Assembly: GCA_963822445.1 (NCBI GenBank)
Contig: CAWGHO010000003.1
Coordinates: forward strand, 224,001-288,000
Direction of reading: 5' to 3'
From: an uncultured Acidobacteriota bacterium
GTDB lineage: Bacteria > Acidobacteriota > Thermoanaerobaculia > Gp7-AA8
DNA length: 64,000 nucleotides
The translations under genes and the position numbers were made by a program. This document shows positions 27,164 through 33,125 of the stretch, piece after piece (the first letter of the stretch is position 1; every line of letters begins with the position of its first letter). The notes under the pieces are model-generated. The model was not told the origin of the DNA and did no database searches. It was given only the letters and a program-made list of their open reading frames with translations.

Positions 27164-29095
27164 TCAATCACGGAACGCCGTGGCCCCGTTGGCGAGCGAC
27201 AACATCGCCGCGGCCAGAACGAGCCCGTGTGCGGGCGCCTGATACGACGGGGTGAAGACGAAGAAAGCGGTCACGTCGATGATGGAGAGGATCATCGCTC
27301 GCGCCGCGACCGCGGCGAGAAGTCCGATGACGACGAGCATCAGCGTTGAACCGCGTCTCCACGGTGCGCTCAGGCAGAACAGAAGCATGGCCGCCACGAA
27401 GAAGATGGGGCAGGTCCACTGGTAGGCGCGACCGATCATCGCCAGCGCGCGCATGCGGAACGAATCCATGGGGTGAAGAGCGGGTGGGCCGGATACCGCG
27501 ACGGAGTATCGCTCCACCGACATCCGCATCTCGGGGCTCACCGCGACGGGCGACTCGATTTTCAGCGGAATCCTCTCGATGCGCCGGCCCCGCAGCGAAA
27601 CGACGAGGTAGTGATGGTGCGCCGGCACGCGGAGCTCGAATCGCGTCGAACGATCCGGACTCGCGAGGCGCGCGATTCTCGCCTCGGGGACGGCGCGGCC
27701 ATCCTCGGCTTCGATGATCAGTTCGACCGGGCCCTCGCGGTGAAACAGGGAGCCGGTGAGGTGCAGGGTCACGGTCTCCTCTCTCGGCGCGAGCGGCGTG
27801 TGCGTGAGCTCGTAGTCGCGGAGCTCCACCGGCAGGCCCTGGGTGTAGTGACGGGCCAGCACGAAGTCGGCGAAGGCGACGATGCGATACAGCGCGCGGG
27901 CCCACGTTCGTGCGATCTGCCTTCGCTGCCCTTTGAGGACGGGAGGCATGAGCGTGGCGCGGACGCCTCGCGTCTCGAGTCGTCCCGCACGGCTCGCTGC
28001 CTCGACCTCACGCGTGATGCGATCGTAGTACGCGCGAACCGCGGAGCCGCCGCGATCGTAGTAGCCGGCCTTCTGCACGGCCTCGCGGAATGCCCACATG
28101 AACGATGACCCGCCGATGTCGCCATCTCCCAGTTCGCCGGAGACGCGCGCCCAGCGTTCGCCGACCTCCCCTTCGAGGAAGGGCCGAAGCTCGCCGAAGG
28201 CAGGGCTGACCGCGTACACGCGTTCGCGAGTCTCCCTGGGCATCGGCATCCGTGGCCGCGTCGGATACTGGCGCACTCCGGTCATCGTTCCGTATGCGCG
28301 GACGAATGACGTCTCCTTGAACTCGACGACTGCCCAGATCCCGTAGCGCATTCCGTTCGCTACGACCAGTGCCCCGTGCGCGAGCGCGAACATCGCCACC
28401 GGAACGCTCGCCATCACGAGCGTTCGCTTCCATCCGGCACGCAGCAGAAGGGCGAGCAGCACGCAGGCCGCGAAGGGCACGATCCACACGCCTTCTTCGC
28501 GGATGTGCCAAAAGACGGCGAGCGCGACACCGCAGAGAATCAACCAGGGGACAACTCGCGCGGTGGGACGGTCGATCCGGAACAGCGCCCCGGCCGCGCC
28601 GGCGACGATCAGCAGCGCCATCGAGGAGGTGAAATGCTCGCGCGACACGATGCTCGGCAGATCGTCCGCAAAGGTCATGGGGTTGAACACCACGACCACG
28701 AACAGCGCCAGCCTCCAAAGCGGGGAGCGAATCAACGGCGCGACCGCCCTGACGAGGATGAAGGCAGCGATCACGTACAACACCTGTTGAGCAAAGAGCA
28801 GCGGAACGTGCAGTGACGACGTGAACGCGATCCACAGCGGATAGGCCGGACCCTTGATCAGCGTCAGGTGGTCGTACGGTCCGAGCCAGTGCCCATCGAG
28901 GATGGAGCGGGCTTTCCGCAGGAACCAGAGGTCGTCGTAACCGGCGAAGCTGAAGGCGGCGACGCGCCAGAATGCGACGAGCCACAACTTCGTGATCGCG
29001 GCGGCGACGATGCCGAGGATCTCGAAACGCCGCGCGGCGGAGCTCACGGGCAGGAGTATAGAAGCGGGACCGCGGCGGCCTTGTGGCCGAATCAC
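27164..29095 (-). CDS. Polytopic membrane protein, possibly a GT-C-type glycosyltransferase (start uncertain)
   Basis: YDDLWF...WLGPYDHLTLIKGPAYP; many TMs; REEGVW. Confidence 0.65.
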   Translation of the reverse strand: MIRPQGRRGPASILLPVSSAARRFEILGIVAAAITKLWLVAFWRVAAFSFAGYDDLWFLRKARSILDGHWLGPYDHLTLIKGPAYPLWIAFTSSLHVPLLFAQQVLYVIAAFILVRAVAPLIRSPLWRLALFVVVVFNPMTFADDLPSIVSREHFTSSMALLIVAGAAGALFRIDRPTARVVPWLILCGVALAVFWHIREEGVWIVPFAACVLLALLLRAGWKRTLVMASVPVAMFALAHGALVVANGMRYGIWAVVEFKETSFVRAYGTMTGVRQYPTRPRMPMPRETRERVYAVSPAFGELRPFLEGEVGERWARVSGELGDGDIGGSSFMWAFREAVQKAGYYDRGGSAVRAYYDRITREVEAASRAGRLETRGVRATLMPPVLKGQRRQIARTWARALYRIVAFADFVLARHYTQGLPVELRDYELTHTPLAPREETVTLHLTGSLFHREGPVELIIEAEDGRAVPEARIARLASPDRSTRFELRVPAHHHYLVVSLRGRRIERIPLKIESPVAVSPEMRMSVERYSVAVSGPPALHPMDSFRMRALAMIGRAYQWTCPIFFVAAMLLFCLSAPWRRGSTLMLVVIGLLAAVAARAMILSIIDVTAFFVFTPSYQAPAHGLVLAAAMLSLANGATAFRD

Positions 29096-30366
29096 TCCGG
29101 GGAGAGTTCTCGACGCCTTGCCCGGATTCGCGACAACAAGACTTCGTTACCGGGTCGTGACGCTCAAGGCGAGTCCAAACCAGCTACCGTCGTCCGAAGC
29201 CGCGATCTTCGGGACAAACGAAATGACTCGAGCACTCCTCGCCCTGCTTCTCATCCTCGGACAATTTCCTGTCGCCGCCGCCACGCGCCGGCGAGCGGTG
29301 CAACATCCGTCACCGCCCGTCCCGCCAGCGGCCATCGTGGCGGCCGCAACTCAGGTCGCCGAAGCTGCATTGAAGGCGGGCGTTCCGGCGGTTCAGATCG
29401 CGGTGTCCGAGCGCGGACGGATCATCTACTCAGAAGCATTCGGCCTGACCGACAAACTCAGTGCGACCGCGGCAACACCGAAATCCGTGCTGCAGATCGG
29501 CTCGATCACGAAGCAATTCACTGCAGCGGCGATTCTCCGGCTGGCCGAGCGCGGGGCTCTGACCCTCGACGATCGCATCGAGAAACACCTTCCGGAGTTC
29601 AACCCCCGAGGAGCGACGATCACGCTGCGGCAGCTCCTCACTCACACTTCGGGAGTTCGTCGCGAGTGGTTCCCACCCGGGCCGCCGGGGATCAACCTCA
29701 TTGCGCCGGTCACCCGTGAGCAGACCATCCAGGGCCTGAACAGCGGGCAACTGCTCGATTCCACGCCCGGCACGAAGTGGAGCTACAGCAACGCCGGCTT
29801 CATGCTGCTCGGCCTGGCGATCGAATCGATCACGGGTACGTCGTACGCCGATTTCATCCATACCGAGTTCGCGTTGCCGCTCGGGCTCCTCGACACCGGC
29901 GTGTGCGGAACGTCCAACCTGCCGGTGCCTGAAGGTTACGGCCTGTCCGGAGCGACGTGGACGCGAATGCCGGCGTTCCATCCGACGGTGATCCTGTTTT
30001 CCGGTTCGCTTTGCTCGACTGCATCCGACCTCGCCCGCTGGGCGCACCTCCTCGCAACCGGCCAAGCCATCCTGCCTGATTCGTACGCGAAGATGATCAC
30101 CCCCGCACGGCTCGCGAACAACGTCAACGTGCTTTACGGACTCGGCCTGGACGTGAAGAACGTGCTCGGGCGTCCGGCCGCGGCGCACGGCGGCTCCGTG
30201 TGGGGCTTCGAGAGTTTTCTCCTCTATTTCCCCGAACAGGAGATCGCCGTGGCGGTCATCACGAATGCGTTCCCCGGACCAGATGAGATGAGAAGGCCAA
30301 CCTCCCACGCAGTCGCAGGAATCTGCGCTGCAAGGAATGCGTCGAGCGCAAGAAAGGAGATTGGCC

Positions 30367-31473
30367 GTGAAAAAGTCTACCAGCGTCGTCACGTGTACGA
30401 GCATGCAGAGCAATATCCGTGAAGCCGAGGTGATCGGGATCGATCTTGGAGATCGCGCATCGCACTTCGTGGGTCTGAACAGAAGCGGCGAAGTAGTGGC
30501 CACAGGAAGGGCGACGACGACAGCGACGGCGATCGCCAACGAGTTCGGCGCGATCGGACCAAAGTTGATCGCCATCGAGACAGGTACCCACTCTCCTTGG
30601 GTCTCGAGACTGCTCACGCAGTTGGGCCATCGCGTAGTCGTGGCCAACTCCCGAAAGCTTCGTCTGATCTACGAAAACCGCCGCAAGAACGACCGCGTTG
30701 ACGCCGAGTACCTGGCACGGCTGGTGAGGATGGACCCGAAACTGCTCGAGCCGATCACGCATCGTTCCGAGCGCGACCAGCAGCATCTGGCACTTCTGCG
30801 TTCGCGCGACAAGCTGGTGCGGACTCGCACAGGTCTGATTACGCATGTTCGGGGCACGGTCAAGTCGATCGGTCTGCGGCTGCCGGCTTGCTCTGCAGAG
30901 GCGTTCGTAAGTCGGGCGATGCCTCTGATCCCGAAAGAGCTGAAAGCTGCTCTTGACCCTGTTCTTCGCAACGTCGAGCAGCTGAACAAAGACATCGCCG
31001 GCTACGACCGCAAGATCGAGCAACTCGCCAGGACCGAGTACCCGGCCGCGAAGCTGCTCATGCAGATCACCGGTGTGGGACCCGTGACGTCGGTGGCGTT
31101 CGTGGTCACGGTGGGCGACCCGGGCCGGTTCAGGAAAAGTCGCACGGCGGGAGCGTGGGTCGGTCTCACGCCGGGCCAATCCGCCTCGGGTCAGCAGGAC
31201 CCCCAGATGAGGATCACCAAAGAAGGAGACAACTATCTGCGACGGCTACTGGTCAGTTGCGCGCAGTACATCCTCGGGCCGAATCGACCAGACTCGGATC
31301 TGCGCCGGCACGGGTTGGCGCTGGCGGCGCGAGGCGGAAAGAACGCGAAGAAACGAGCCGTGGTCGCGGTCGCACGAAAACTCGCGGTGCTCATGCACAG
31401 GCTGTGGCGTACGGAAGGCGTGTACGAACCTCTGTTCAACGCCAACAGGAGTGCCGAGCACTCAGCAGCTTGA
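30367..31473 (+). CDS. IS110-family DEDD transposase/recombinase
   Basis: AAAGGAGA RBS before GTG; GIDLG, IETG, KNDRVD (DEDD); GVGPVT; LTPGQSASG (catalytic Ser region); ITKEGDNYLRRLL; AVARKL. Confidence 0.95.
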   Translation: MKKSTSVVTCTSMQSNIREAEVIGIDLGDRASHFVGLNRSGEVVATGRATTTATAIANEFGAIGPKLIAIETGTHSPWVSRLLTQLGHRVVVANSRKLRLIYENRRKNDRVDAEYLARLVRMDPKLLEPITHRSERDQQHLALLRSRDKLVRTRTGLITHVRGTVKSIGLRLPACSAEAFVSRAMPLIPKELKAALDPVLRNVEQLNKDIAGYDRKIEQLARTEYPAAKLLMQITGVGPVTSVAFVVTVGDPGRFRKSRTAGAWVGLTPGQSASGQQDPQMRITKEGDNYLRRLLVSCAQYILGPNRPDSDLRRHGLALAARGGKNAKKRAVVAVARKLAVLMHRLWRTEGVYEPLFNANRSAEHSAA

Positions 31474-31719
31474 GAACCAGGTAGAACCGATCAGCAAAGA
31501 AAGAAACTCGACTCGATCCCTCATCCGGGTGACTGCGAGCGGCGGCTTGGTCGGCAGCGATGCCAGACCGTGGACCAGATGGCAGCACCCAGTTGAATCG
31601 GACCTCAGCATGCACCGAGCTCGATCGAGCTCACCAAGAGTGCGAATGGAAGCAAGGTCAGGACGAGCGGCGAGAGACAAAGGAGGGCGGCGCCACGTCG
31701 CCGCCCCTTGACAGGATCA
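31474..31719 (+). ncRNA. Predicted bridge/seekRNA in the 3' non-coding region (boundaries approximate)
   Basis: Hairpin 31527-31590 carries GGCGGCT and GGACCAG, matching the target; hairpin 31601-31659 carries ATGGAAG, matching the element end; terminal hairpin 31685-31706. Confidence 0.8.
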
Positions 31720-31821
31720 GGCCTTCTCATGGAAGCCGCCTACAGGCCACACCTCCTGGCCGCCGCCGTGGCGCAAGCCGCGCTCCCCGCGCAGTAGCGA
31801 CCATTAGCACGGGAATCGCGC

Positions 31822-33125
31822 ATGACTGCCATGGACGTTTTCTCGATCCGATCGCTCTCCCGGTGCTTCGCTATGGCGCTCGCCGCGACGATCGTCGCCG
31901 GCTCCGCGCTCGCGGATCAGCGAGTCATCGTTCTCCTTCAGCCATCGCAAGGCGCGCGATCGCAAGCCGCAACGATCGATCGCAACGCGCCGCGCATCTA
32001 CGCGAAGTGGCGCGTCGTTCCGGGATTTGCCGCGACGGTTGACGACGCGGAGATGCAGCGCCTCCGCAACGATCCCGCCGTCACCTCCGTCGAACCCGAC
32101 CTCGGCGGCAGCGTGACCGCCGTTTCGAGCGAAGGGTCGATCGGCCTCAACGGAGAGCTGATCGGCCTTCCCGCGGTGCATGCGCTCGGCTACGACGGCA
32201 CCGGGAGCACGGTCGCGGTGCTCGGCACCGGCGTTTCGCCGCACCCGGATCTGAACGGCCGCATCGTCGAAGAGCGTTGTTACTGCGCGTATGCGAACGG
32301 CCAGGGATGCTGCCCGAATGGCGCAACCCAGCAATTCGGCACTGGTTCCGCGCGCGACGACCTCGGTCACGAGACCAACGTCGCCGGGGTCATCGCCGGC
32401 AGAGGCGGCATCGCGCCCATCGGGATCGCGCCGGGAGCGAAGATCGTGGCGATCCGCACGAACGACGCCACCGGCAACATCGCCTGGACTTCGCAGGTGA
32501 TCTCGGCACTCGATTCGATCCTAGCCAGCCCGGTCCACGTCGACGCCGTCAACATGAGCTTCGCCATCGGCTTTCTGTCGAACAACGCGTGCGACGGGGA
32601 TAACCCCGCACTGACCGATGCGATGGCACGCGTGCGCGCTCGCGGCATCGTCCTCGTCGCAGCGACGCGGCGACGAAGGGAATCCGTCCGCCCGCCTGCA
32701 TCTCGGGGGTTCTTTCCGTCGGCGCGGTCTACCACACGAATCTCCCGTCGGCTTCGCTGCTGGGATGCACCGACACGCCCGCGGAGGTCGATCGTGTCAC
32801 GTGCTTCTCGAACTCCGCTGCGCAGCTCGATCTCCTCGCGCCCGGTTACCGCGTTCAGTCGCCGGCGAAGAATGGTGGAGTCTCGAACGCCAGCGGAACG
32901 TCGTTCTCAGCGCCGCATGTGGCCGGGGCCGTTGCCCTGCTGCGGCAGATCGATCCACAGTTGACGCCCGACGCCATCGAGGAGCTGCTCGAGTCGACGG
33001 GACGTCCGATCGTCGACAGCCGCAGCGGCATCACCACGCCGCGCCTCGACCTCTTCGCGGCAGTGATTAAGCTGCGTCTGAATGCGACGCCGGCGGGGCC
33101 GCGGCGCCGCTCTGTTCGGCACTGA
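31822..33125 (+). pseudogene. Subtilisin-like S8 peptidase, inactivated
   Basis: Signal and prodomain; AVLGTG (catalytic Asp replaced by Gly); GHET; a 10-bp deletion near 32664 removes SGN and shifts frame; SGTSFSAPHVAG; C-terminal RRRSVRH. Confidence 0.85.

What the first reader, a model, noticed from the sequence alone, without database searches (positions are those of the whole stretch)
31474..31719. Readable bridge/seekRNA: the IS's non-coding tail encodes both its DNA target and its own donor junction
Seen: the reconstructed empty site is GGACC-AG-CCGCC. A hairpin closed by GGGTG(A)CTGC (31527) and GCAGCACCC (to 31590) has an internal loop with GGCGGCT (31541-31547, reverse complement of the right target AGCCGCC) opposite GGACCAG (31572-31578, identical to the left target plus core). 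A second hairpin, closed by GACCT/AGGTC, carries ATGGAAG (31646-31652), identical to the element's right end plus core. The right-donor guide is only partial (CTCA at 31604; CTCATC at 31520). Known: IS110/IS1111 recombinases are RNA-guided, and IS1111 members encode the RNA downstream of the transposase. Inference: this is an intact, potentially reprogrammable RNA-guided recombinase with an AG core and a 12-bp target.
Basis: partly seen in the sequence, partly recalled or inferred. Interest (0 to 1): 0.92.

Follow-up and report, generated by a model that had tools for sequence, protein, structure and literature searches.

The report
RNA-guided IS1111-type insertion sequence
This is an intact jumping gene of the known IS110/IS1111 kind whose non-coding tail carries short sequences matching both its insertion site and its own ends, a well-supported but expected example of RNA-guided transposition.

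Summary

**The element.** Window 30283-31735 is a 1453-bp IS110-family element of the IS1111 type.
- It has 11-bp subterminal inverted repeats with 7-nt and 3-nt terminal extensions.
- Its DEDD transposase gene lies at 30367-31473, followed by a 3' non-coding region.
- The genome holds three identical copies, at GG(A/T)CC-AG-CCGCC sites.

**Comparative evidence.** I aligned 27 distinct RNAs from Acidobacteriota relatives whose transposases are 44-85% identical.
- The outer helix shows compensatory changes in 6 of 9 pairs.
- Both strands of the target loop covary with each element's own flanks (0 of 20000 permutations reach the observed match).
- The donor strands covary with each element's own ends.

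**Corrections.**
- CTCA at 31604 is the real short donor guide; CTCATC at 31520 is not.
- The helix closing the donor loop is unresolved.

**Additions.**
- Read on the other strand, the AG core is the CT core of IS621.
- The AU after the core (31579-80) sits where IS621 has its handshake guide.
- The usual target is a REP-like double hairpin. The window copy instead hit a chance 12-mer near the 3' end of a serine-hydrolase gene.

**Limits.** No RNA or activity data exist for this element.

**Verdict.** Real; a new member of a kind described in 2024; moderate interest.

The parts
30276..30282 (+). Left half of the target (GGACC) plus the core dinucleotide AG at the left junction
   Evidence: Flanks of the three copies; intact 12-mers elsewhere in the genome
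30283..31735 (+). The insertion sequence, 1453 bp. AG stands at both junctions (30281-82 and 31734-35) and only one copy belongs to the element
   Evidence: Three 100%-identical copies in the own genome; the empty site is colinear with orthologues
30283..30298 (+). Left end: extension ATGAG (30283-87) and the left 11-bp subterminal inverted repeat ATGAGAAGGCC (30288-98)
   Evidence: Read; conserved in relatives. With the core included, the left extension is 7 nt, as published for IS1111
30367..31473 (+). Transposase gene, 368 aa from GTG 30367, with AAGGAG 7 nt upstream. Domains DEDD/RuvC-like plus Transposase_20
   Evidence: Pfam PF01548 and PF02371; NCBIfam NF033542, 229 bits against a cut-off of 140; DEDD invariant in 23 relatives; Ser aligned to IS621 S241; relatives have ATG at the same place
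31527..31590 (+). Target-binding module. Outer helix P1 (31527-36 with 31582-90). 5' guide GCGGCGG+CU (31539-47), complementary to AG+CCGCC(GC). Inner stem-loop (31549-69). 3' guide GGACC+AG (31572-78). AU (31579-80) in the handshake position
   Evidence: Consensus structure and pair counts; guide-flank covariation; AU counts
31604..31607 (+). Short donor guide CUCA, complementary to TGAG of the left-end extension (30284-87)
   Evidence: Changes with the left-end extension in relatives: CUCA, CCCA, UCCA, CCUUA; 0 of 20000 permutations reach the observed match
31612..31643 (+). Hairpin P3: GCAC (31612-15) with GUGC (31640-43), enclosing the palindrome 31617-32
   Evidence: 4 of 5 pairs invariant in 27 RNAs and 98.5% of cells paired
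31646..31652 (+). Donor guide AUGGA+AG, identical to the last 7 nt of the right end including the core (31729-35)
   Evidence: 7 of 7 identity in 22 of 24 relatives across three different 7-mers
31684..31707 (+). G+C-rich hairpin between the RNA module and the right end; role unknown
   Evidence: Listed by the terminator scan on the minus strand. A hairpin with a CCAC loop is seen in L005, L008 and L027 (by eye)
31708..31713 (+). TTGACA, a -35-like hexamer 6 nt before the right repeat; proposed -35 of a promoter completed only in the circle junction
   Evidence: TTGAC at the same distance from the repeat in relatives (by eye). Junction promoters are described for the family (PMC11187229). No sigma-70-like promoter in the integrated element
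31720..31740 (+). Right end and flank: right repeat GGCCTTCTCAT (31720-30), extension GGA (31731-33), core AG (31734-35), right half of the target CCGCC (31736-40)

Best explanation
Window 30283-31735 is an intact, recently active IS1111-type member of the IS110 family. Its 3' non-coding region encodes a bridge/seekRNA.

**Proposed mechanism (inferred from IS621 and ISEc11).**
1. The element excises as a circle in which the right end, one AG and the left end abut.
2. The RNA, bound by the DEDD/Ser transposase, pairs through one internal loop with both strands of the target. GCGGCGG-CU pairs with the top strand of AG-CCGCC(GC). GGACC-AG pairs with the bottom strand of GGACC-AG.
3. Two further single-stranded segments pair with both strands of the circle junction: CUCA with TGAG of the left end, and AUGGA-AG with the bottom strand of the right end.
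4. Strand exchange at the core inserts the element without duplication.
5. The AU after the core in the target loop matches the donor (the left end starts AT), not the target. It sits where IS621 has its handshake guide A81/U82.

**Shown here.**
- The anatomy of the element.
- Three insertions at the predicted target.
- Covariation of helices, target guides and donor guides across relatives.
- Conservation of the catalytic residues.

**Inferred.** That the guide is RNA, that a circle forms, the order of chemical steps, and reprogrammability.
For: **Family and architecture.**
- Pfam DEDD_Tnp_IS110 and Transposase_20 both match.
- NCBIfam 'IS110 family RNA-guided transposase' scores 229 bits against a cut-off of 140.
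- The element has 11-bp subterminal repeats, 7-nt and 3-nt extensions and a 3' non-coding region. These are the published IS1111 features.

**Insertions.**
- Three 100%-identical copies sit at GG(A/T)CC-AG-CCGCC.
- The empty site is confirmed by REP-like paralogues and by orthologues.

**RNA structure in 27 distinct RNAs (L014 left out).**
- P1 is paired in 97.5% of cells, with 6 of 9 pairs changed on both sides.
- The base of the inner stem is paired in 88.9% of cells.
- 0 of 500 shuffles reach the observed covariation score. Versions with the 3' partners slid pair in 27-46% of cells against 88.5%.

**Target guides (core excluded).**
- Left: cognate match 4.81 of 7 against 1.92 for non-cognate pairs, 21 elements.
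- Right: cognate match 6.38 of 8 against 4.59, 24 elements.
- 0 of 20000 permutations reach either value. This also holds with one row per distinct guide, 20 and 22 rows.

**Donor guides.**
- The 3'-strand 7-mer equals the right end in 22 of 24 elements: ATGGAAG in 15, ATAGAAG in 5, ATAGAAA in 2.
- The 5' guide matches the left-end extension at 0.92 against 0.77; 0 of 20000 permutations reach this.
- The two elements with an AA core carry AA in both loops.

**Handshake position.** AU follows the core in 24 of 27 RNAs. The left end starts AT in 21 of 21 elements. No right flank among 24 starts AT. IS621 has A81/U82 pairing with donor A6/T7.

**Catalytic residues.** D14, E59, D97 and D100 are invariant in 23 transposases. 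The serine aligns with IS621 S241.

**Order of guides.** It is as published for IS1111 seekRNAs.
Against: - There is no direct evidence that the tail is transcribed or processed. No RNA run was usable.
- No Rfam family matches at E up to 10.
- The integrated element has no sigma-70-like promoter.
- The whole tail folds no better than shuffles (z = -0.9).
- In the single-sequence fold only 4 of 9 nt of each target guide are unpaired.
- The donor guide CUCA is only 4 nt.
- The donor-loop closure is unresolved: 61.7% against 50% of cells paired for the two candidate helices. Among 27 minimum-energy folds, the conserved GG pairs with the donor 5' strand in 12, with the region 5' of the target module in 5, and otherwise or not at all in 10.
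- Several relatives match one flank poorly: L011, L015, L021, L024, L026, L029.
- Junctions in relatives were placed by conserved end motifs, not by empty sites.
- Relatives are kin, so the permutation figures overstate independence.
Confidence: 0.9

Rival explanations
1. Target guide only. The tail encodes a short seekRNA that selects the target, while the transposase recognises the element's ends directly through the subterminal repeats. On this reading ATGGAAG and CTCA resemble the ends because they are internal protein-binding copies of end sequence, not donor guides.
For: In the seekRNA study, 82-96-nt RNAs carrying only the two target matches were sufficient for transposition. That paper's introduction says end recognition may differ between the families. 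Here the donor guide CUCA is only 4 nt, and the helix closing the donor loop is unresolved. The long 11-bp repeats could serve as protein sites.
Against: Both donor segments change together with the ends: three different right-end 7-mers are matched in 22 of 24 elements, and the left-end extension is tracked by the 5' segment. The two segments have opposite strand sense, as in the target loop. Durrant et al. report donor-complementary nucleotides in the IS1111 RNAs they inspected. An internal protein site would also covary, so this rival is weakened but not excluded.
Confidence: 0.07
2. The guide acts as DNA. The conserved tail segments pair with target and ends as single-stranded DNA of the element itself, as in IS200/IS605, and no RNA is involved.
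For: Sequence covariation alone cannot tell RNA from single-stranded DNA of the same strand. No expression data exist for this element, and no promoter was found inside it.
Against: The transposase belongs to the family for which RNA co-purification, RNA supplied in trans and cryo-EM with RNA are published (abstracts and sections read). NCBIfam names the family RNA-guided. The helices tolerate G-U on the + strand: U-G 3 times at one P1 pair and G-U once at another. The family's chemistry is DEDD/Ser rather than HUH.
Confidence: 0.02
3. Chance or captured flank. The 7-mers in the tail are chance matches in G+C-rich sequence, or remnants of flank captured in an earlier rearrangement, and have no function.
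For: The genome is about 64.5% G+C. The perfect 12-mer occurs 5 times unoccupied, close to the 4.6 expected from base composition.
Against: Both target 7-mers together appeared in 20 of 20000 shuffles and all three 7-mers in 0. Guides and flanks covary across more than 20 elements with different targets. They occupy fixed positions between covarying helices.
Confidence: 0.01

Closest known systems
IS1111-family elements with a seekRNA (ISEc11, ISPa11, ISKpn4, ISPst6; Siddiquee et al. 2024, PMC11187229)
   Same: - Non-coding region downstream of the transposase gene.
- Subterminal inverted repeats of 11-13 bp with 7-nt and 3-nt extensions.
- The segment matching the target's top strand lies 5' of the bottom-strand match, and the two overlap in the target.
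- Insertion without duplication.
- GL-P----SG motif.
   Different: - The transposase is 368 aa against the 330-350 aa stated for the family.
- In a spread sample of rows from the plasmid collection, the highest identity listed was 35%, and IS4321-type hits were about 27%.
- The host is an Acidobacteriota genome.
- Donor-matching segments are evident here, whereas that paper describes target matches only.
- No experiment has been done on this element.
IS621 bridge RNA (Durrant et al. 2024, PMC11208160; Hiraizumi et al. 2024, PMC11208158)
   Same: - Two guide pairs, one for the target and one for the donor, each pairing with both strands around a 2-nt core.
- Read on the other strand, the core is CT, the donor has AT next to the core, and the target loop carries AU after the core-pairing nucleotides. 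This is exactly as in IS621 (A81/U82 with donor A6/T7).
- DEDD residues plus a serine.
   Different: - The RNA is 3' of the gene, not 5'.
- The recombination site is inverted relative to the direction of transcription.
- The subterminal repeats are long.
- One donor guide is only about 4 nt and may lie in a multi-loop, as Durrant et al. note for many IS1111 orthologues.
- Only the C-terminal domain aligns by sequence (E = 3.8e-7).
REP-targeting IS110-family elements (ISPpu9, ISPpu10; PMC12288879 seen as a search listing only; bioRxiv 10.64898/2026.03.19.712850, sections 6-7 read)
   Same: Two of the three insertions, and 3 of the 5 empty perfect sites, lie in a repeated G+C-rich palindromic element. 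The target sits right next to a hairpin.
   Different: - ISPpu10 as described there has its RNA upstream of the gene.
- Here the target lies between two hairpins.
- The window copy sits at a non-REP site inside a gene, so the hairpins are not strictly required.

Membership tests
IS110 family (DEDD RNA-guided transposases) | Transposase with an N-terminal DEDD/RuvC-like domain and a C-terminal Transposase_20 domain | tested here: met
   PF01548 (E = 5.9e-17) and PF02371 (E = 2.2e-21). NF033542 scores 229 bits against a cut-off of 140.
IS110 family (DEDD RNA-guided transposases) | Catalytic D, E, D, D and the serine of the G..P....SG motif | tested here: met
   D14, E59, D97 and D100 are invariant in 23 aligned transposases. 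GLTPGQSASG aligns with GLTPRRYESG of IS621, placing the serine opposite S241 (chain numbering is offset by 2, my reading).
IS110 family (DEDD RNA-guided transposases) | Site-specific insertion at a short conserved target around a 2-nt core, with no target duplication | tested here: met
   Three insertions at GG(A/T)CC-AG-CCGCC. A single AG restores the REP-like paralogue sequence and the orthologue-length reading frame.
IS1111 group | Subterminal inverted repeats, usually 11-13 bp, with asymmetric terminal extensions of 7 (or 6) nt on the left and 3 nt on the right | tested here: met
   ATGAGAAGGCC at 30288-98 and GGCCTTCTCAT at 31720-30, 11 of 11 complementary. The extensions are AG+ATGAG (7 nt) and GGA (3 nt), read. 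The criterion comes from PMC11187229.
IS1111 group | The long non-coding region, and the RNA, lie downstream of the transposase gene | tested here: met
   262 nt lie between the stop codon (31473) and the right end, against 84 nt upstream of the start.
IS1111 group | The transposase groups with IS1111-type transposases in a phylogeny | not tested
   No named reference set was available to build a tree. The only comparison was tblastn against plasmids, where IS4321-type hits were about 27% identical. The length of 368 aa is above the 330-350 aa stated for the family.
seekRNA / bridge RNA | Two segments in one internal loop, complementary to opposite strands of the target and overlapping at the core. 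In IS1111 the top-strand match is the 5' one | tested here: met
   The order matches PMC11187229 section 9.
seekRNA / bridge RNA | A second pair of segments complementary to opposite strands of the joined element ends (donor-binding loop) | tested here: met
   The segments are present and covary with the ends. Whether they lie in an internal loop or a multi-loop is inconclusive.
seekRNA / bridge RNA | The RNA is expressed, binds the transposase and is needed for transposition | not testable with these tools
   No RNA holder was listed among public runs.
Rfam families | A match to a curated covariance model | tested here: not met
   Nothing in 31474-31735 matched any of 4227 Rfam 15 families at E up to 10.

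The most novel reading that the evidence does not exclude
This Acidobacteriota clade may show, from natural variation alone, that IS1111-type elements use the full two-loop bridge mechanism of IS621 with the recombination site turned round relative to the RNA. On this reading:
- the core is the same CT dinucleotide;
- the donor carries the same AT next to the core;
- the target loop carries the same AU handshake dinucleotide;
- the donor guides are split across a three-way junction, closed by a helix 5' of the target module, with one donor guide reduced to about 4 nt and the long subterminal repeats making up for it.

That would reconcile the target-only seekRNA description with the bridge model. 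It would also mark a compact, distinct orthologue group for engineering: in a spread sample of plasmid-collection hits the highest identity listed was 35%.
Probability: 0.3. Interest if true: 0.5.

Novelty: new member of a known kind. Interest (0 to 1): 0.33.

Why it matters
- **A second, independent data set.** RNA-guided recombinases of the IS110/IS1111 family are being developed as genome-writing tools. Most mechanistic knowledge comes from IS621 and ISCro4, while IS1111-type RNAs are less well understood. This element and about 25 relatives form a natural reprogramming series. Target guides, donor guides and even the core change together with the DNA they should pair with. That supports a two-loop bridge logic for an IS1111-type clade.
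- **Candidate engineering positions.** The data point to specific guide positions, including a likely handshake dinucleotide.
- **Annotation.** For this genome it explains three identical repeats, a truncated serine-hydrolase gene and a link to a REP-like repeat.
- **What it does not change.** It leaves the field's picture of how these elements work unchanged.

Tried and rejected
- **Rfam.** A search of 30000-32000 at E up to 10 gave only three weak, irrelevant matches, none inside the tail.
- **Folding the whole tail.** Folding 31474-31736 gave z = -0.9, so overall stability is no argument either way.
- **Public sequencing runs.** No RNA holder was listed. Only two soil-metagenome contig sets held small shares (0.10 and 0.04), and I did not lay them.
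- **Donor-loop closure.** Neither is convincing: 50% against 61.7% of cells paired, and single-sequence folds are split.
- **CTCATC at 31520 as a donor guide.** Rejected, because the corresponding positions in relatives do not follow the left-end sequence (by eye, not counted).
- **A handshake base after the core complement in the 5' target strand.** U is present in only about 8 of 20 relatives by my reading, so I rejected it.
- **A handshake base after the core in the donor 3' strand.** C is fixed in 24 of 27 RNAs and equals the first flank base in only 9 of 24, so there is no support.
- **Solo RNA copies in the own genome.** An nhmmer profile of the RNA alignment found only the three element copies at E up to 1e-3.
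- **A sigma-70-like promoter inside the integrated element.** None was found.
- **Supplementary figures.** The supplements of the seekRNA and bridge RNA papers hold the folds of the long seekRNAs and the IS1111 structures.

Full report
**1. The observation**

- GGCGGCT 31541-47
- GGACCAG 31572-78
- the stem GGGTG(A)CTGC 31527-36 with GCAGCACCC 31582-90
- ATGGAAG 31646-52
- CTCA 31604-07
- CTCATC 31520-25
- GACCT 31601-05 and AGGTC 31655-59

In 20000 dinucleotide-preserving shuffles of 31474-31719, the two target 7-mers occurred together 20 times. All three 7-mers occurred together 0 times.

**2. The element**

- The ORF upstream of the tail carries Pfam DEDD_Tnp_IS110 and Transposase_20.
- It scores 229 bits on NCBIfam NF033542, 'IS110 family RNA-guided transposase', against a cut-off of 140.
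- The likely start is GTG 30367, 7 nt after AAGGAG. Relatives have ATG at the same place. That gives 368 aa.
- The ends carry a perfect 11-bp subterminal inverted repeat (30288-98 and 31720-30).
- Outside the repeats lie ATGAG on the left and GGA on the right. An AG stands at both junctions.
- Counting the core with the left end gives extensions of 7 and 3 nt. This is exactly what Siddiquee et al. state for IS1111-family elements, together with 11-13-bp repeats and a downstream non-coding region (PMC11187229, passages and section 6 read).

**3. Copies and target**

The genome has three 100%-identical copies of the 1453 bp. Their flanks are:
- GGCGGACC-AG / CCGCCGAG
- CCCGGACC-AG / CCGCCTAC (the window copy)
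- GGCGGTCC-AG / CCGCCGCA

The perfect 12-mer occurs 5 more times unoccupied, against about 4.6 expected from base composition. Three of those five lie in a repeated element with two G+C-rich hairpins flanking the target. One of the occupied sites has the same element, and its flanks join to the intact paralogue sequence with a single AG.

The window copy sits instead near the 3' end of a PF00144 serine-hydrolase gene. Joining its flanks with one AG gives 22 further residues to the stop codon. That is the same length as in the 4 uninterrupted same-genus orthologues I read; a fifth locus, from an unpublished genome, was not read. The insertion is therefore precise and makes no duplication.

**4. 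Relatives**

- A scan of species-representative genomes gave 3 loci with transposases 66-85% identical, from Acidobacteriota and Thermoanaerobaculia metagenome-assembled genomes.
- A search of 401 genomes of the phylum found a transposase match at E up to 1e-40 in 24 of them, the own genome included.
- In 34 of the 36 loci then held, the tail has conserved anchors and the element has the same end motifs.
- I aligned 27 distinct RNAs. Identical second copies were removed, and L014, from an unpublished genome, was left out.

**5. RNA structure**

RNAalifold and explicit pair counts give:
- An outer helix P1 of 9 pairs, 97.5% of cells paired, with 6 pairs changed on both sides. One pair, for example, is U-A 13 times, C-G 10 times and U-G 3 times.
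- The base of an inner stem-loop of very variable length, 88.9% paired. One of its pairs is C-G 12 times and U-A 11 times.
- A third hairpin, GCAC/GUGC, that is almost invariant.
- Controls: 0 of 500 shuffles reach the observed covariation score. Sliding the 3' partners drops pairing from 88.5% to 27-46%.

The two target 7-mers lie on the two strands of the internal loop between P1 and the inner stem. In the window's own minimum-energy fold only 4 of 9 nt on each strand are unpaired. This is partly unavoidable, because the two guides are complementary to each other at the core.

**6. Target guides covary with flanks**

For each element I compared two things, with the core excluded:
- the 7 nt before the core in the 3' loop strand against its left flank;
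- the 5' loop strand against the reverse complement of its right flank.

| Side | Cognate match | Non-cognate match | Elements |
|---|---|---|---|
| Left | 4.81 of 7 | 1.92 | 21 |
| Right | 6.38 of 8 | 4.59 | 24 |

None of 20000 permutations reached the observed sums. This also holds with one row per distinct guide, 20 and 22 rows.

Examples:
- L005 has flank CGAGCC-AG with guide CGAGCCAG, and flank AG-CCGGCGA with guide UCGCCGGCU.
- L013 has flank AG-CAGGTCGT with guide ACGACCUGCU.
- L010 and L011 have flank GGAGGAGG with guide CCUCCUCC.

Weak cases also exist. L011 and L015 match poorly on the left. L021, L024, L026 and L029 match poorly on the right. L021's right flank is a repeat of its own tail.

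For the window element the pairing is 5+2+5 nt at its own site. It reaches 7 nt on the right at the third copy and 6 of 7 on the left at the first. One left-side mismatch (GGTCC) is tolerated.

**7. Donor guides**

- The 3' segment AU(G/A)GAAG equals the last 7 nt of the right end, core included, in 22 of 24 elements. The 7-mer is ATGGAAG in 15, ATAGAAG in 5 and ATAGAAA in 2. The other two elements match 6 of 7.
- One second copy, L032, has ATAG at its end while its RNA has AUGG.
- The short 5' segment follows the left-end extension: CUCA with ATGAG, CCCA with ATGGG, UCCA with ATGGA, CCUUA with ATAAGG. The mean match is 0.92 against 0.77, and 0 of 20000 permutations reach it.
- Exceptions are L018, L024 and L035, each with one mismatch, and L004.
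- CTCATC at 31520 does not follow the left end in relatives (by eye).
- The two elements whose core is AA carry AA in both loops.

**8. Relation to IS621**

In IS621 the guide that pairs with the top strand runs RTG, then core, then a two-base handshake guide. In the wild type the handshake guide is A81/U82, and it pairs with donor A6/T7 after strand exchange (PMC11208158, passages read).

Suppose the site here is read on the strand opposite to the transposase gene. Then:
- the core is CT;
- the donor has AT immediately 5' of the core;
- the 3' strand of the target loop reads GGACC-AG-AU, that is, RTG, core, AU.

AU follows the core in 24 of 27 RNAs (GU in 2, AG in 1). The element starts with AT in 21 of 21. 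No right flank among 24 starts with AT. So these two bases match the donor, not the target, as the handshake logic requires.

Because both sides are nearly invariant, this rests on homology of position, not on covariation. [quoted passage not shown]

**9. What remains open**

- **Donor-loop closure.** It can also pair with CC just 5' of the target module, which would put the donor guides in a multi-loop (61.7% paired, one pair with 4 sequences changed on both sides). Single-sequence folds split 12, 5 and 10. [quoted passage not shown]
- **Expression.** No RNA run was usable and no sigma-70-like promoter lies inside the integrated element. A conserved TTGACA stands 6 nt before the right repeat. 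A hexamer with A at position 2 and T at position 6 would form 18 nt downstream only when the right end, the core and the left end's AT are joined. This fits the family's known junction promoter (PMC11187229), but the hexamer matches the -10 consensus at only 3 of 6 positions. This is inference.

**10. Catalytic residues**

D14, E59, D97 and D100 (numbered from the Met at 30403) are invariant in 23 aligned transposases. GLTPGQSASG aligns with GLTPRRYESG of IS621 (8WT6), placing the serine opposite S241. Only the C-terminal domain aligned by sequence (E = 3.8e-7).

**11. Comparison and novelty**

The element meets the IS1111 criteria I could test. The phylogenetic criterion was not tested. The RNA meets the sequence-level criteria for a seekRNA/bridge RNA; expression and function are untestable here.

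It is far from named elements. In a spread sample of hits in the plasmid collection the highest identity listed was 35%, and IS4321-type hits were about 27%. No Rfam model covers the RNA.

The class, its 3' RNA, its guide order, REP targeting and programmability were published in 2024-2026 (the ISPpu9 paper was seen only as a search listing). This is a new member of a known kind. The covariation series across a phylum and the handshake correspondence add detail, not a new principle.

**12. Verdict**

- Confidence that this is a functional IS1111-type RNA-guided element: 0.9.
- Interest: 0.33.

Noticed in passing
window 30295-30305 with 30356-30366: The sequence just inside the left repeat (GGCCAACCTCC) can pair in 10 of 11 positions with GGAGATTGGCC, which contains the Shine-Dalgarno sequence right before the GTG start. 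Relatives keep the pairing through changes on both sides, for example GGCCGACCTCC with GGAGGTCGGCC and GGTCAGGTTCC with GGAGAACCTGACC. It looks like a helix that hides the ribosome-binding site of the transposase gene.
   Followed up: partly
own genome, e.g. C3:169173, C3:175495, C2:1845038, C3:666843, C1:1109330, C2:415: A repeated REP-like element with two G+C-rich hairpins (GCCGGCG-NGA-CGCCGGC, then GG(A/T/G)CCAG, then CCGCCG-NNN-CGGCGG CGCTCC) carries the target between the hairpins. Two of the three insertions are in such elements. Relatives L004, L006 and L008 also lie beside GACGCCGGCG-type palindromes.
   Followed up: partly
window 28992-30282 and 31735-31797: The insertion cuts off the last 21 codons of a PF00144 (beta-lactamase/transpeptidase-like) serine-hydrolase gene. 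The frame now runs on into the element to 30422. Same-genus orthologues are uninterrupted. Nothing shows that it is a resistance gene.
   Followed up: partly
window 31708-31735: TTGACA lies at a fixed 6 nt before the right repeat, in this element and in relatives. A -10-like hexamer would exist only across the circle junction, made from the last four bases of the right end with the core plus the AT of the left end. It matches the -10 consensus at only 3 of 6 positions.
   Followed up: partly
window 31684-31707: A G+C-rich hairpin with a CCAC-containing loop sits between the RNA module and TTGACA. It is conserved with compensatory changes in L005, L008 and L027 but absent in others. On the minus strand it is followed by a T-rich tail and was listed as terminator-like.
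   Followed up: no
L021 (G266:C38), right end of the element: The right end is followed directly by a second copy of the start of the element's own tail, up to the contig end. This could be a tandem or nested copy or an assembly artefact. Its right flank does not match its guide.
   Followed up: no
L013 and L032 (G112): Two copies of one element carry the same RNA (AUGGAAG) but differ at the right end (CATGGAAG against CATAGAAG). The left flank GCAGCAG makes the left junction ambiguous by 3 nt.
   Followed up: no
L006 (CAVTGG010000005.1): This copy lacks the left end and left repeat, and its transposase match breaks at residue 196 of the query. It looks like a decayed copy, yet its RNA module and right end are intact and sit at a matching right flank.
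   Followed up: no
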